From Escherichia coli (GTDB lineage: Bacteria > Pseudomonadota > Gammaproteobacteria > Enterobacterales > Enterobacteriaceae): 37,672 bases of DNA. The notes beneath the pieces were generated by a model that did not search any database, was not told the DNA's origin, and saw only the letters and a list, made by a program, of their open reading frames with translations. Position 1 is the stretch's first letter; every line of letters starts with the position of its first letter. The position numbers were made by a program, and so were the translations under genes. Below, in pieces: positions 15,420 through 19,502 of the stretch. The DNA lies in NCBI RefSeq assembly GCF_051903065.1, contig NZ_CP178442.1; one strand, given 5' to 3'.

Positions 15420-15935
15420 ATGAATATCCAGGAAGCATTAAACGTTTTTGGATTATCCGGCGAATTAACTGAAAAAGATATCAAAGCAGCATACAGAAAA
15501 GCCGCTTTAAAATATCATCCAGATCGTAACCCGTTAGGGGCTGAACTGATGAAAGCGGTAAATGCAGCTTTTGATGTATTGATGGCAAATATTGATAAAA
15601 TAAATCAGTTCCAGAGCACTGATGAACATGCACGATATAATTACGGTGATGACCTGGAAAAAGTATTAAATGTTCTTTCTGGTTTATCTGGTCTGGTATT
15701 TGAAGTGATAGGTAACTGGGTCTGGATTAGTGGAGAAACCCTTACACATAAGGAAACTTTGAAAGAAATCGGGTGTAAATGGGCGGCAAAGAAAAAACAA
15801 TGGTTTTATCGTCCAGACGAACATAAAAGTTACTGGAATCGTGAAGAACACACGATAGAAGAAATCCGCGCAAAATACGGTACAACCGGACAGCGCAGGG
15901 CGACAGGGTGGCAACGCGTGGAAACCAGAGCGTAA
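15420..15935 (+). CDS. J-domain (DnaJ-like) protein, 171 aa
   Basis: N-terminal J domain with HPD tripeptide (KDIKAAYRKAALKYHPDRNP); no Zn-finger/Gly-rich DnaJ regions, so a J-domain-only cochaperone-like protein. Confidence 0.7.
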   Translation: MNIQEALNVFGLSGELTEKDIKAAYRKAALKYHPDRNPLGAELMKAVNAAFDVLMANIDKINQFQSTDEHARYNYGDDLEKVLNVLSGLSGLVFEVIGNWVWISGETLTHKETLKEIGCKWAAKKKQWFYRPDEHKSYWNREEHTIEEIRAKYGTTGQRRATGWQRVETRA

Positions 15936-16039
15936 CCAGAACGGGGGCGAGAAGCCCCCGATATTATAGCCAGCCCGTCTTTTGGGGCATCGAACCCAAA
16001 AAGACGGGAACAGCAGCCACGTAGCAAAAAGGGAAACAG

Positions 16040-16582
16040 ATGAACTCTTTTTTTGAACAATATCACCCTGTCTTTGAAGTTGTCTGCCGTATCCTGGGGA
16101 ACGGCTGGCGCGTGAACAAACTTGATGATTGTTCGTCTCGTATAAAACTGACGTCACCGCAGTTTAAAAATTACTCTGTGCATATTCGGATGGAAAAAGA
16201 CCGGTTTTCTGTTGTGGGGAGTGTGGATAGTCGCTCCTGGCGTAGTCCGCATCATGTTTGCACGTTATCCAGAAAACGGAATCCCGTTGATATTGCAGCC
16301 GATATCGAGCGAAAAATTCTGGTAAATGCTTCGCAGGAGGTGTTACAGGCGATTGAGTATGAGAAACACCAGGTGGAAAAAAAGGACGAAATTCTGATCC
16401 TGAAAGGTATGTTATCGCAACTTGTCCAGCTTGAAAGCTGGTATGGGGCATTGACAGGCTTTAAAGCTGAAAACGGATTGAACGGTAAAGTCACCGAACA
16501 GGGCGACAGTTATGATTTACAGATTCGGGGCTTGAGTATAGATCAACTTGTTAAAATTACAGGGTATTTGAAACAGTTATGA
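16040..16582 (+). CDS. hypothetical protein (180 aa)
   Basis: Intact ORF co-oriented with flanking genes; no recognised motif. Confidence 0.45.
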   Translation: MNSFFEQYHPVFEVVCRILGNGWRVNKLDDCSSRIKLTSPQFKNYSVHIRMEKDRFSVVGSVDSRSWRSPHHVCTLSRKRNPVDIAADIERKILVNASQEVLQAIEYEKHQVEKKDEILILKGMLSQLVQLESWYGALTGFKAENGLNGKVTEQGDSYDLQIRGLSIDQLVKITGYLKQL

Positions 16583-16830
16583 GAAAAAATAAAGGTGATG
16601 TGACTTATTTTCTTGAAAAAGAAGGTGACAATTACAGGCTTACAAAAAGGATAAAAGCCAGAACAAATGTTAAAATCGGGAACAAAACTACGAAAATTAC
16701 ATTGTATGATGCCGTACTGAATGAGAATGAATTACAACATATTGATTTTACGTGTGCCGGATTAAGGGAAGACGATGAGACGCCAGTTAAGAATTTAATT
16801 AAGGAGTTTATGTTAAATGAAACCCGATAA
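16579..16830 (+). CDS. hypothetical protein (83 aa)
   Basis: Start overlaps stop of upstream ORF (ATGA coupling); no recognised motif. Confidence 0.4.
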   Translation: MRKNKGDVTYFLEKEGDNYRLTKRIKARTNVKIGNKTTKITLYDAVLNENELQHIDFTCAGLREDDETPVKNLIKEFMLNETR

Positions 16831-17044
16831 TACACCTGAAAATGTAAAAAAATTACGTTTAAAAGCAGGATTAACACAGAAAGAATGCAGTCATATTTAT
16901 GGTGTTGGGCTAAGAACCTGGCAGAAAAAAGAGGAGGTTAATACTCAAAACAGTCAAAGTCTGTCACTGGTTGAGTTTGAGTTTCTTTTGTTACTTGCAG
17001 GAGAACATCCTGAATACGTGCTCTGCAAAAGGGAGTCAAAATAA
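16817..17044 (+). CDS. small XRE/Cro-type helix-turn-helix protein (75 aa)
   Basis: HTH-like segment LRLKAGLTQKECSHIYGVGLRTWQKKE typical of XRE-family regulators; overlaps upstream ORF. Confidence 0.5.
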   Translation: MKPDNTPENVKKLRLKAGLTQKECSHIYGVGLRTWQKKEEVNTQNSQSLSLVEFEFLLLLAGEHPEYVLCKRESK

Positions 17045-17078
17045 AATGACCTGTGATGGTTTTATATTAGTACCTGGA

Positions 17079-17498
17079 GTTGCGCCCGTAGCTCGCTGAC
17101 GCTCACACGCGCAGTACAGCGCCCCGCCATGCTGCAATGCACCAGGGCGGGGTAAACTCGCTTGCGCTCGCGCTAACTGCGGCATTCTGCGGCGCAAATC
17201 AGCATAATCATAGCCTGCTGGTCAGTTGGGCTTTGCAGGGTGAAGGGATGTCCTGTGCGCCCTGGTACGTTCATCAGCGGCTGCGCCGCGCTTTGGGGCG
17301 ATGTGGCTCCTGTGCTGCCCTGGTATTTTCGTTCGCCCCTTCCATCCGCTTACGCGGATTAAAAAACGTGATAACAATCACTTATCGAGTAAAAAAACGG
17401 GAGAACACTTGCAAATACGACTTAAAGGTCGTATTATTGTTTCATCGAAAGGGGAATGGCCCCTCTCACAATAGCCCAGCAGGGCAGGAGATTTAAAA
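17079..17498 (+). repeat. about 420-bp GC-rich direct repeat, copy 2 (ends at the ATG of the downstream 99-aa gene)
   Basis: Matches 14999-15418 (offset 2080 bp); the only difference seen is the A-run length just before the start codon. Confidence 0.85.
17409..17437 (+). promoter_or_regulatory. near-consensus sigma70 promoter inside repeat copy 2 (TTGCAA -17 bp- TATTAT)
   Basis: Same sequence as 15329-15357, positioned upstream of the ATG at 17498. Confidence 0.45.
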
Positions 17499-17797
17499 TG
17501 AAATGCTCATCTGTTTTTACTTCAACCACTAATCATGTTTTCACATTCGAACGAGTAACGCTTTGCACTATTATCCTTATGCATAAGGATACGGGACAAC
17601 AGTATGTTGTCATATTTACTGATAACAATAAAATTCGTGACTATAAAACCGGAATTGTTCCTCAGTTTGGCGAAATTAAGCAGAGTGATGTTGATTTAGT
17701 CCTTTTCTACAGGGACGAATATGAAAAATATTTTGATTCGTTAAAAGATGGTGATGAATGCTTGAGTTTTAAAGATTTTATTGAGTGCCTTCGTTAA
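17498..17797 (+). CDS. hypothetical protein (99 aa)
   Basis: ATG directly after repeat copy 2 with the same caggag RBS; the ORF-track N-terminus (17456) lies within the repeat and is unlikely to be coding. Confidence 0.45.
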   Translation: MKCSSVFTSTTNHVFTFERVTLCTIILMHKDTGQQYVVIFTDNNKIRDYKTGIVPQFGEIKQSDVDLVLFYRDEYEKYFDSLKDGDECLSFKDFIECLR

Positions 17798-17891
17798 GCA
17801 TTATAAATGCAGGGGGGGGGAACCCTGCATTTTCTGGAAATTTCAATATTGATTCTTAAATTGTCTATTAACATCAATGCAAGGGAAATTC

Positions 17892-18242: not shown

Positions 18243-18317
18243 CTATTCAATGTGTGATCAGGTTGTTCCACCAACCTGATCACGTTATCGACAATCAAAA
18301 CTGAATGAGGTTTTTAA

Positions 18318-18461: not shown

Positions 18462-18490
18462 AAAGGGGCTTTCTGCCCCTTTGTATTTTT
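18462..18490 (+). terminator. rho-independent terminator-like hairpin (aaaggggc-tttct-gccccttt followed by T-run)
   Basis: 8-bp GC-rich stem with 5-nt loop followed by gtatttttt; lies between the small ORF and hicA. Confidence 0.6.
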
Positions 18491-19139: not shown

Positions 19140-19397
19140 TTGCCCTTGTTTTTTTATGCCCTGTAAGGGCATGGGAGGCGCTTTGCGCCGGAAGCCCCGC
19201 AGCGCAGCGAGGACTTAAAAAGCGTTACGGCTTCAGCCGTAACAATTCCCAGCCCTGCCAGGCCTGTTTTTTCTTTCACAAATCTTTCAGCTATACGTTT
19301 GCCAGATGGTCGAAGACGAAAGAACCTTTCAGCAACGAAATCTGGACATATGCCGAGACGATTTTATAGCCATGCACAGTGTCACATATGGTACAAT

Positions 19398-19489
19398 CAA
19401 TGCAGGATAGACAATCATGGTCAAAATGTTAACATTTTATCCATGATTGTCCAAAAACGATGTTTTTGCCTGTGCCTGCCGCAGGCTCT
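19398..19489 (-). promoter_or_regulatory. 92-bp element, inverted copy of 10923..11014; candidate origin of transfer adjacent to the relaxase operon (nic motif TATCCTGC on bottom strand, 19402-19409)
   Basis: Exact reverse-complement identity to 10923-11014; lies 13 bp upstream of the taxA-like gene and is preceded by hairpins (gttacggc-ttca-gccgtaac at about 19216-19235). Confidence 0.55.
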
Positions 19490-19502
19490 GTTGGGGTGAG
19501 TT

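What the first reader, a model, noticed from the sequence alone, without database searches (positions are those of the whole stretch)
15936..16040. Highly structured intergenic region after the J-domain gene
The 105-bp spacer contains a perfect hairpin cgggggc-gagaa-gcccccg and a longer nested hairpin cccgtctttt-ggggcatcgaaccc-aaaagacggg. Neither is followed by a clear U-tract, so they are not simple intrinsic terminators. They may be RNA processing or stability elements, or binding sites.
Basis: seen in the sequence. Interest (0 to 1): 0.3.

Follow-up and report, generated by a model that had tools for sequence, protein, structure and literature searches.

The report
Conserved mRNA hairpins between plasmid genes
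Both stem-loops are real and evolutionarily maintained, and they most likely shape the stability and processing of a two-gene message on an IncX4 resistance plasmid, which is a useful annotation but an ordinary kind of element.

Summary
The window is a whole IncX4 conjugative plasmid. The 104-nt spacer (15936-16039) between the J-domain gene and a 180-aa gene holds H1 (15942-15960, seven perfect G/C pairs, loop GAGAA) and H2 (15974-16008, 10+3 pairs around one G.A mismatch, loop CATCGAA). Both are far more stable than chance, and neither has a U-tract on the + strand.

H1 sits 2-12 nt after the J-gene stop (2-7 nt in 16 of 17 versions) in every related module examined. Its loops are GAAA/GTAA/GCAA, which are GNRA only on the mRNA strand. 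In distant relatives the same position carries hairpins with T-rich tails, including a canonical terminator. H2 occurs in only three sequence types, with four compensatory pairs and an invariant loop. It is not a dispersed repeat and matches no Rfam family.

Best reading (about 0.5): an intercistronic mRNA module. H1 is a terminator-derived 3' protective hairpin for the J message. The AU-rich linker carries an RNase E-type motif. H2 is a 5' hairpin for the downstream message.

Rivals are leaky termination, single-stranded DNA priming signals on the transferred strand, minus-strand functions, and an H2 loop-binding regulator.

The element is ordinary in kind and low in interest. No transcript-end data were found, so the function remains inferred.

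The parts
15329..15357 (+). Promoter-like site TTGCAA-17-TATTAT inside the D2 repeat, about 60 nt upstream of the J-domain gene. It is the candidate promoter of the J operon (context only).
   Evidence: The same site recurs in the second repeat copy at 17409-17437.
15420..15935 (+). J-domain protein gene (171 aa); its stop codon TAA is at 15933-15935.
   Evidence: annotated as J domain-containing protein; Pfam DnaJ E = 1.9e-11.
15937..15939 (-). CTG on the minus strand, 2 nt 3' of H1 as read on that strand. It matters only for the G4-type priming rival.
   Evidence: It resembles the phage G4 arrangement but is absent in IncX3, X5, X6, IncU, pZH49 and the 24-kb plasmid type.
15942..15960 (+). 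H1: CGGGGGC-GAGAA-GCCCCCG, seven G/C pairs, starting 6 nt after the stop codon. It is a terminator-type hairpin without a U-tract and the proposed 3' protective structure of the J message.
   Evidence: Its position is conserved in 17 module versions.
15961..15973 (+). Single-stranded AU-rich linker AUAUUAUAGCCAG. It contains AU|AUU (15961-15965), which matches the RNase E motif RN|WUU. The CCAGC next to H2 is invariant.
   Evidence: The motif is as quoted in PMC5927463.
15974..16008 (+). H2: ten outer pairs, a G15984.A15998 mismatch, three G-C pairs, and the loop CATCGAA (15988-15994). It is the proposed 5' stem-loop of the downstream message or a loop-specific recognition hairpin.
   Evidence: Four compensatory pairs and an invariant loop. 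It is restricted to three sequence types.
16030..16042 (+). Shine-Dalgarno-like AGGGA (16030-16034) and the ATG (16040-16042) of the downstream gene.
16040..16582 (+). Downstream 180-aa gene of unknown function. It is the constant partner of the J gene in IncX-, IncI2- and IncU-typed plasmids and in other enterobacterial plasmids sampled.
   Evidence: No Pfam or NCBIfam family.

Best explanation
The spacer is an intercistronic RNA module of the J-domain operon and acts on the + strand transcript.

1. H1 is a very stable C(GNRA)G-type hairpin inherited from an intrinsic terminator that has lost its U-tract. RNA polymerase largely reads through it. Once the polycistronic RNA is cut downstream, H1 blocks 3'-to-5' exonucleases and leaves a stable J-domain message.
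2. The AU-rich single-stranded linker (AU|AUU) is the likely RNase E entry or cleavage site.
3. After that cut, H2 lies close to the new 5' end of the downstream segment, about 11 nt from it if cleavage is at the motif. It would protect that segment or set its fate.

The outcome is different steady-state levels of the J-domain protein and the downstream proteins from one promoter.

Shown: the structures, their conservation, the mRNA-strand signature of the H1 loops, the lack of a U-tract, and the motif.
Inferred: co-transcription, cleavage, and the stabilising effect.
For: Real and non-random structures.

H1 position and strand:
- H1 lies 2-7 nt after the J-gene stop in 16 of 17 module versions, and 12 nt after it in Acinetobacter. 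The versions come from IncX1/3/4/5/6, IncI2, IncU-typed, Pantoea, Proteus, Morganella, Legionella and Acinetobacter plasmids.
- The stem sequence differs in the distant relatives (Proteus ATAGCGGGG/CCCCGCTAT, Legionella AGAAAGCCC/GGGCTTTCT).
- Seven of the eight distinct lineages with tetraloops have GAAA, GTAA or GCAA, so variation falls only at the N of GNRA on the + strand. IncX4 has GAGAA.
- The IncX1 stem carries a G.U pair on the + strand that would be A.C on the minus strand.

Terminator ancestry:
- The Acinetobacter hairpin has an A8/T7 canonical terminator.
- The Morganella (TTATTTTCATTT), P. stewartii (TTCTTTTG) and Proteus (TATTTTC) hairpins have T-rich tails.
- The IncX and IncI2 versions score 0-1.7 on the T-tract measure.

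Read-through is needed:
- In IncX5 and Pantoea agglomerans the whole spacer is 43 nt. That leaves no room for a promoter for the conserved downstream gene.

H2:
- Four pairs changed on both sides between the IncX4 type and the 24-kb plasmid type.
- 95% of cells are paired. The covariation score is 0.213 against 0.081 for shuffles (0 of 500 as high), and it collapses when the partner columns are slid.
- The arms vary while the asymmetric loop stays invariant. That is the pattern of a single-stranded stem-loop, not of a double-stranded operator.

Linker and literature:
- The linker matches RN|WUU (motif from PMC5927463).
- Stable stem-loops without U-tracts are documented 3' protective structures in E. 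coli (PMC6061677; malE-malF and papBA models in PMC5927463).
Against: - No transcript-end or decay data for IncX4 or IncI2 plasmids were found. Co-transcription, cleavage and stabilisation are all untested.
- H1 shows almost no covariation among the IncX lineages, because the stem is sequence-invariant. Its support rests on positional conservation and the loop pattern.
- The four compensatory H2 pairs are consecutive and separate only two lineages. They may reflect one event, such as hairpin-templated repair.
- The RNase E motif is complete only in the IncX4 type; other types have AU|AUC.
- H2 is absent from most lineages that keep the same two genes, so it cannot be essential to the module.
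- G.U versus A.C evidence for H2 is symmetric between strands in pZH49.
- The region lies in DNA that enters recipients single-stranded, so DNA-level roles are not excluded.
Confidence: 0.5

Rival explanations
1. H1 is a weak (leaky) intrinsic terminator or attenuator. A fraction of polymerases stop at H1 despite the poor U-tract. This lowers transcription of the downstream genes directly rather than through decay, and H2 is accessory.
For: - The equivalent hairpins in Acinetobacter, Morganella, Proteus and P. stewartii have T-rich tails and the same short distance to the next gene.
- The stem is unusually strong (-15.6 kcal/mol).
- GNRA tetraloops closed by C-G are typical of terminator hairpins (my knowledge, not tested here).
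Against: - The + strand T-tract score is 0-1.7 in all IncX and IncI2 versions. The d'Aubenton-Carafa-style discriminant, whose formula I recalled from memory, is negative (-15 for this plasmid).
- The consensus scan did not call H1 on the + strand.
- E. coli polymerase normally needs the U-tract (my knowledge).
Confidence: 0.2
2. The hairpins act in single-stranded DNA during conjugation. On the transferred minus strand, H2 and H1 followed by TT-CTG would form a G4-type primase (DnaG) initiation signal. Alternatively they would form a structured roadblock for transcription of the single strand.
For: - The spacer lies between two inverted copies of a palindrome followed by TATCCTGC, at 10996-11010 (+) and 19402-19416 (-). 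From memory, these fit the RP4-type nick consensus and the two oriTs of R6K. On that reading the minus strand enters recipients first from the taxC-proximal copy.
- Phage G4's complementary-strand origin has an 8-pair hairpin with a 5-nt loop, then a 3-nt spacer (CTA) and the CTG where the primer starts.
- On this plasmid's minus strand there is a 7-pair hairpin with a 5-nt loop, then TT, then CTG.
- As single-stranded DNA the minus strand folds with z = -4.66.
Against: - The CTG next to H1 is absent in IncX3, X5, X6, IncU, pZH49, the 24-kb type and Pantoea, all of which keep the hairpin.
- The constraint on the loop (GNRA) is on the + strand.
- Strict adjacency to the stop codon, and replacement by ordinary terminators in distant relatives, are expected for an mRNA element and not for a priming site.
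- There is no sequence similarity to G4 beyond the layout.
Confidence: 0.08
3. The hairpins serve the minus strand RNA. H1 would be a weak terminator for antisense or convergent transcription. Alternatively, H2 plus H1 would form a FinP- or CopA-like antisense RNA against the 5' region of the downstream gene.
For: - The scan calls H1 terminator-like only on the minus strand (tail TTCTGGTT). The minus-strand T score of 2.4 exceeds the plus-strand score of 1.2.
- The A-rich run before H1 on the + strand (GAA, AAAA) is fairly conserved.
- The H2 loop on the minus strand, UUCGAUG, begins with a YUNR-like UUCG, as in antisense recognition loops (my knowledge).
Against: - No minus-strand promoter reaching 9 of 12 lies downstream of H2. 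The only good -10 (TATAAT, 15968-15963) lies between the hairpins, has a poor -35, and is not conserved in the 24-kb type.
- All genes from 13.9 to 21.2 kb are on the + strand.
- The GNRA pattern is on the + strand.
Confidence: 0.07
4. H2 is a recognition hairpin for a sequence-specific RNA-binding regulator (plasmid- or host-encoded) that controls translation or stability of the downstream 180-aa gene. This may be in addition to any passive protective role.
For: - The loop and inner stem GGGCATCGAACCC and the 5' flank CCAGC are invariant in all three sequence types, while the outer stem changes by compensation.
- H2 sits 21 nt upstream of the Shine-Dalgarno sequence.
Against: - No candidate binder was identified.
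- H2 is missing from IncX1, X3, X5 and X6, which keep both genes.
- No Rfam match.
- With only three sequence types, loop invariance could be shared ancestry.
Confidence: 0.1

Closest known systems
[quoted passage not shown]
   Same: Like these, H1 is a very stable stem-loop with no U-rich tail. It lies just after a coding region and between same-strand genes, and it is conserved among homologous operons.
   Different: No 3'-end or half-life data exist for this plasmid. H1 is a single short hairpin, not a REP element, and its relatives in other plasmids are ordinary terminators.
papB-papA type processing: RNase E cleavage in an unstructured RN|WUU site just upstream of a 5' protective hairpin (PMC5927463)
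   Same: An AU-rich single-stranded linker with AU|AUU lies directly upstream of a stable hairpin (H2) that precedes the downstream cistron.
   Different: Cleavage is untested. The motif is complete only in the IncX4 type. H2 is much longer (14 positions) than needed for 5' protection, and its loop is invariant.
Intrinsic (Rho-independent) terminator
   Same: A GC-rich stem with a stable tetraloop-type loop a few nucleotides after a stop codon. A canonical terminator (Acinetobacter) and hairpins with T-rich tails (Morganella, Proteus, P. stewartii) occupy the same place in those plasmids.
   Different: The U-tract, a defining feature, is missing on the + strand in all IncX and IncI2 versions. 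The downstream gene appears to depend on read-through.
Phage G4 complementary-strand origin and G4-type single-strand initiation (ssi) signals
   Same: On the strand that is transferred in conjugation there are several hairpins in an intergenic spacer. The last is GC-rich with a 5-nt loop and is followed 2 nt later by CTG. In G4 the spacing is 3 nt.
   Different: The CTG is not conserved among plasmids that keep the hairpin. The loop constraint is on the opposite strand. There is no sequence similarity, no third hairpin of the G4 kind, and no functional test.

Membership tests
Intrinsic terminator | GC-rich hairpin shortly after the stop codon | tested here: met
   H1 has seven G/C pairs (-15.6 kcal/mol) and starts 6 nt after TAA.
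Intrinsic terminator | Run of U directly 3' of the stem on the transcribed strand | tested here: not met
   The 3' flank is AUAUUAUAG. The T score is 1.24, against 2.2-2.7 for the Proteus, P. stewartii and Morganella versions. The + strand was not called by the scan. After H2 the flank is AACAGCAGCC.
Intrinsic terminator | Precise primary 3' ends and termination in vitro | not testable with these tools
   No transcript data were found.
3' protective stem-loop (differential operon decay / Rho-dependent 3' end type) | Energetically stable stem-loop not followed by a U-rich sequence | tested here: met
   The definition comes from PMC6061677.
3' protective stem-loop (differential operon decay / Rho-dependent 3' end type) | Located inside a polycistronic transcript, 3' of the stabilised gene | tested here: inconclusive
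   The genes are on the same strand. Spacers are as short as 43 nt with no room for a promoter in IncX5 and Pantoea. No + strand promoter reaching even 8 of 12 consensus positions lies in or near the spacer. Co-transcription was not observed directly.
3' protective stem-loop (differential operon decay / Rho-dependent 3' end type) | Structure conserved in homologous operons | tested here: met
   A hairpin is present at the same position in 17 module versions, with different stems in the distant ones.
3' protective stem-loop (differential operon decay / Rho-dependent 3' end type) | Steady-state 3' ends at the base of the stem that depend on PNPase/RNase II trimming | not testable with these tools
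   This needs Term-seq in wild-type and exonuclease mutants.
papBA-type RNase E site plus 5' protective hairpin | RN|WUU motif in an unstructured segment just upstream of a stable hairpin | tested here: met
   A15961 U15962 | A15963 U15964 U15965 lies in the unpaired linker, 9 nt before H2. Other types have AU|AUC. The motif is from PMC5927463.
papBA-type RNase E site plus 5' protective hairpin | RNase E-dependent monophosphorylated 5' end | not testable with these tools
   This needs 5'-end sequencing in an rne-ts strain.
G4-type ssi (primase-dependent priming signal) | Hairpins on the strand that exists as single-stranded template | tested here: met
   The minus strand folds into both hairpins as DNA (z = -4.66). 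The minus strand is inferred to be the transferred strand from the nick-type sequence at 19402-19409 (the consensus is from memory).
G4-type ssi (primase-dependent priming signal) | CTG start site a few nucleotides 3' of the last hairpin, conserved among relatives | tested here: not met
   It is present here and in IncI2, IncX1 and L040. It is absent in IncX3, X5, X6, IncU, pZH49, the 24-kb type and Pantoea.
G4-type ssi (primase-dependent priming signal) | DnaG/SSB-dependent primer synthesis or ssi-probe rescue | not testable with these tools
   This needs an M13 ssi-probe assay or in vitro priming.
Any curated RNA family (Rfam 15), tRNA or tmRNA | Covariance-model or ARAGORN match | tested here: not met
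   No Rfam match in the spacer at the gathering threshold or at E up to 10. No tRNA or tmRNA was found, despite the T-arm-like GGGTTCGATGCCC on the minus strand.
cis-antisense RNA (FinP/CopA-like) | Own promoter on the minus strand upstream of the stem-loops | tested here: not met
   No site reaching 9 of 12 lies downstream of H2. The only TATAAT lies between H2 and H1, has a poor -35, and is not conserved.
Dispersed repeat / mobile hairpin element (REP-, MITE-like) | Multiple copies within or across genomes outside one syntenic site | tested here: not met
   There is one copy in the window. Searches of plasmids and E. coli genomes hit almost only this syntenic site in plasmid records (2 of 454 E. 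coli places were on chromosomes and were not examined). The genome-wide pattern scan gave chance-level hits plus one plasmid fragment. The metagenome scan gave only the same three sequence types.

The most novel reading that the evidence does not exclude
The spacer is a dual-use element. As well as being an mRNA hairpin module, its minus-strand form (H2, then H1, then TT-CTG) acts while the plasmid is still single-stranded in a new host. It would serve either as a G4-type primase start site for complementary-strand synthesis or as a template-strand structure that stops single-strand-templated transcription after the J-domain gene. Early gene expression would then be coupled to strand conversion in IncX4 and IncI2 resistance plasmids.
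Probability: 0.08. Interest if true: 0.55.

Novelty: new member of a known kind. Interest (0 to 1): 0.2.

Why it matters
IncX4 and IncI2 plasmids are major vehicles of mcr-1, and here of cfr. The J-domain module sits in the DNA that enters a new host first, and none of its genes has a known function. Knowing that the module carries a conserved hairpin after the J gene gives a concrete handle for experiments. A hairpin mutant should change the ratio of J protein to downstream proteins. It also gives a better annotation of operon structure. The element itself is a familiar kind of bacterial mRNA feature. It would become more interesting only if the single-stranded DNA reading proved true.

Tried and rejected
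- Rfam at the gathering threshold on the whole window, and at E up to 10 on 14700-17700: nothing in the spacer.
- ARAGORN: no tRNA or tmRNA. The T-arm look of the minus-strand H2 loop is treated as chance.
- Mobile or dispersed hairpin element: rejected. The 14 genome hits match the roughly 9 expected by chance. All but one are unrelated sequences, apparently coding, without the hairpin.
- Similarity of the spacer to the D2 repeat or to the rest of the 13-19.5 kb region: local alignment scores lie within the shuffle range. The shared 7-mer CATCGAA in D2 is not significant.
- Promoters inside the spacer, on either strand: none convincing.
- Double-stranded palindromic operator for H2: rejected. 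The arms vary by compensation while the asymmetric centre is invariant.
- Strand assignment of H2 from wobble pairs: uninformative. The pZH49 variant gives one wobble plus one mismatch on either strand.
- Lambda boxB-like reading of the GAGAA pentaloop: only a resemblance. Other lineages have plain tetraloops, and I did not look for an N-type antitermination protein or a boxA element.
- RNAalifold on 14 aligned H1 regions: it recovers the hairpin but only four pairs, because of loop-length register shifts, and shows almost no covariation.
- Literature searches on leading regions, IncX4 and G4-type ssi found no description of these hairpins and no transcript-end data. One search was wasted on eukaryotic DnaJ papers.
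- The terminator discriminant uses a formula recalled from memory. It mis-scores hairpins whose A/T tracts pair, such as Acinetobacter. I use only the T-tract comparison from it.

Full report
**What the window is**

The 37,672-bp window is a complete IncX4-type conjugative plasmid. A 1.2-kb query around the finding is 100% identical to many 33-40 kb E. coli and Salmonella plasmids. One of them, pNGF1_pCROD2_like, is typed IncX4, MOBP, MPF_T.

The spacer lies between a J-domain protein gene (15420-15935; Pfam DnaJ E = 1.9e-11) and a 180-aa gene with no known family (16040-16582). Both belong to a run of + strand genes from the RelE/ParE module (13884-14406) to ddp1/taxC (from about 19501).

**The observation**

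- H1 is CGGGGGC-GAGAA-GCCCCCG at 15942-15960.
- H2 spans 15974-16008. It has ten perfect outer pairs, one G.A mismatch, three G-C pairs and the loop CATCGAA.
- The spacer is 104 nt, not 105.
- As RNA the spacer folds at -41.2 kcal/mol, against -25.7 +/- 3.5 for shuffles (z = -4.45). The minus strand gives z = -4.72.
- Among all 44-nt windows of the plasmid, H1 (-18.2) lies beyond the 1st percentile and H2 (-21.6) lies at about the 0.1 percentile.
- Neither hairpin has a T-run on the + strand. The consensus scan flags H1 only on the minus strand, with tail TTCTGGTT.

**H1 across relatives**

I fetched the J-domain module from IncX1, X3, X5 and X6, IncI2, an IncU-typed Providencia plasmid, a 24-kb plasmid type, pZH49-5, three Pantoea plasmids, and Proteus, Morganella, Legionella and Acinetobacter plasmids.

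Every one has a hairpin 2-12 nt after the J-gene stop, and the distance is 2-7 nt in all but Acinetobacter. The findings are:

- Most lineages share the core GGGGGC/GCCCCC.
- Proteus (ATAGCGGGG/CCCCGCTAT), Legionella (AGAAAGCCC/GGGCTTTCT), Morganella and Acinetobacter use other stems. What is kept is therefore a structure at a position, not only a sequence.
- The tetraloops are GAAA (IncX1, X3, X5, Pantoea), GTAA (24-kb type) and GCAA (IncX6, IncU, Proteus). Variation falls only at the N of GNRA, and that reading exists only on the + strand.
- IncX4 and IncI2 have GAGAA, and pZH49 has AGAA.
- The IncX1 stem includes a G.U pair on the + strand that would be A.C on the minus strand.
- In Acinetobacter the hairpin is a canonical A8/T7 terminator. 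Morganella (TTATTTTCATTT), P. stewartii (TTCTTTTG) and Proteus (TATTTTC) have T-rich tails.
- In all IncX and IncI2 versions the + strand T score is 0-1.7.
- In IncX5 and Pantoea agglomerans the whole spacer is only 43 nt. The conserved downstream gene therefore has no room for its own promoter and must depend on read-through.

I conclude that H1 is a terminator-derived mRNA hairpin that no longer has what E. coli polymerase needs to terminate efficiently.

**H2 across relatives**

H2 occurs in only three sequence types: IncX4/IncI2, pZH49-5 and the 24-kb plasmid type.

- A genome-wide pattern scan returned chance-level unrelated hits plus one 272-bp plasmid fragment.
- A metagenome scan that left the 3' arm unconstrained returned only the same types.
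- Between the IncX4 type and the 24-kb type, four consecutive outer pairs changed on both sides (CCGT/ACGG to AATC/GATT). The inner stem and loop GGGCATCGAACCC and the 5' flank CCAGC stayed invariant.
- 95% of cells are paired. The covariation score is 0.213 against 0.081 in shuffles (0 of 500 as high), and it collapses when the partner columns are slid.
- The four changes may be a single event, and they separate only two lineages, so this is supportive rather than strong evidence.
- Variable arms with a conserved asymmetric centre are the opposite of a double-stranded operator. They fit a stem-loop in single-stranded nucleic acid.

**Mechanism I favour**

The layout is a stable U-less hairpin, then an unpaired AU-rich linker, then a second stable hairpin, then a ribosome-binding site. 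This is the layout described for differential decay of E. coli operons.

- 3' protective structures such as malE-malF, and the U-less stem-loops at the steady-state ends of Rho-dependent transcripts, block PNPase and RNase II (PMC5927463; PMC6061677).
- RNase E cuts at RN|WUU in unstructured RNA just upstream of a 5' protective hairpin, as in papBA.
- The linker here reads A15961 U15962 | A15963 U15964 U15965, a full match. The other H2-bearing types have AU|AUC.
- A promoter-like TTGCAA-17-TATTAT (15329-15357) lies 60 nt upstream of the J gene.

I therefore propose one transcript that is cut in the linker. H1 stabilises the J message, and H2 lies near the new 5' end of the downstream message. 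All functional steps are inferred, because no transcript-end data for these plasmids turned up.

**Conjugation context and the DNA-level rival**

A 95-nt inverted repeat (10920-11014 and 19398-19492) contains a 42-nt palindrome. The palindrome is followed by TATCCTGC on the + strand at 10996-11010 and on the minus strand at 19402-19416. From memory, this matches the RP4-type nick consensus and the two inverted oriTs reported for R6K. If so, the minus strand of the 11-19.4 kb segment enters recipients first from the taxC-proximal copy, and it is the template for all these + strand genes.

On that strand the spacer reads H2, then H1, then TT, then CTG. Phage G4's complementary-strand origin has an 8-pair hairpin with a 5-nt loop, then CTA, then the CTG where the annotated primer starts. 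The resemblance is real. However, the CTG is missing in most lineages that keep H1, the loop constraint is on the other strand, and adjacency to the stop codon is not expected of a priming site. I give this rival 0.08.

**Other rivals**

- Leaky termination at H1 (0.2) would have the same physiological outcome as the favoured model. Only in vitro transcription can separate the two.
- A minus-strand terminator or antisense RNA (0.07) lacks a promoter.
- A loop-specific RNA-binding regulator for H2 (0.1) would explain the invariant loop, but no candidate is known, and H2 is missing from most lineages that keep both genes.

**Verdict**

These are conserved intercistronic mRNA hairpins of a known kind that had not been described for this plasmid module. 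Interest is low (0.2). The main value is annotation and a clean experimental handle on an uncharacterised module of epidemic resistance plasmids.

Noticed in passing
window 3604-6736: The linezolid/phenicol resistance gene cfr (4846-5901, minus strand; NCBIfam Cfr E = 2.5e-195) lies between two directly repeated IS6-family (IS26-like) copies. Their transposase ORFs are at 3649-4371 and 6014-6736. An Rfam match to 'Bacillus sRNA ncr1575' (110.7 bits, 4529-4746, minus strand) lies just 3' of cfr. This suggests the cargo came from a Gram-positive source with its flanking non-coding RNA region.
   Followed up: partly
window 10920-11014 and 19398-19492: A 95-nt inverted repeat, 99% complementary, 8.4 kb apart. 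Each arm holds a 42-nt palindrome followed by TATCCTGC (10996-11010 on +, 19402-19416 on -). This probably represents two inverted oriT copies, as reported for R6K (from memory). If so, either strand of the replication and leading segment between them could be transferred first.
   Followed up: partly
window about 14999-15416 and 17079-17496: A repeat of about 420 bp, GC-rich and strongly structured. Only a 300-nt stretch was checked by the repeat tool and it was exact there. Each copy ends in a promoter-like TTGCAA-17-TATTAT about 60 nt upstream of a gene (the J-domain gene and a 113-aa gene). It occurs in 2-6 copies per plasmid in IncX4 and IncI2 plasmids. It could be a single-stranded-DNA promoter or initiation element of a type unrelated in sequence to Frpo. 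This was not tested.
   Followed up: partly
window 14943-14982: A perfect palindrome with 18-nt arms (GTGTTAATGCTAATGTATGCATACATTAGCATTAACAT) lies just upstream of the first D2 repeat copy. Its only Rfam hits are spurious microRNA matches on both strands.
   Followed up: no
window 17805-17832, 18254-18283, 18462-18482, 19148-19191: Other genes of the same + strand block are also followed by strong hairpins. Some are canonical terminators (17805-17832 with TTTTCT; 18462-18482, bidirectional). One is a perfect 12-pair hairpin without a T-run (18254-18283). The block is unusually rich in post-gene structures.
   Followed up: no
L014 (IncI2 plasmid NZ_CP043198.1) 901-2313 versus window 15420-16830: The J-domain gene, the spacer with both hairpins, and the downstream gene are about 98-99% identical between IncX4 and IncI2 plasmids, which have unrelated backbones. 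The module has therefore moved recently between the two main mcr-1 plasmid types. In a Pantoea stewartii plasmid (L011) the J gene lies next to a plasmid ssb gene.
   Followed up: partly
window 12604-12982: Six 22-bp iterons (core ACCATAAATCTGTCCCC) lie next to the replication initiator gene (11511-12518, minus strand). This is the expected IncX gamma-type origin.
   Followed up: no
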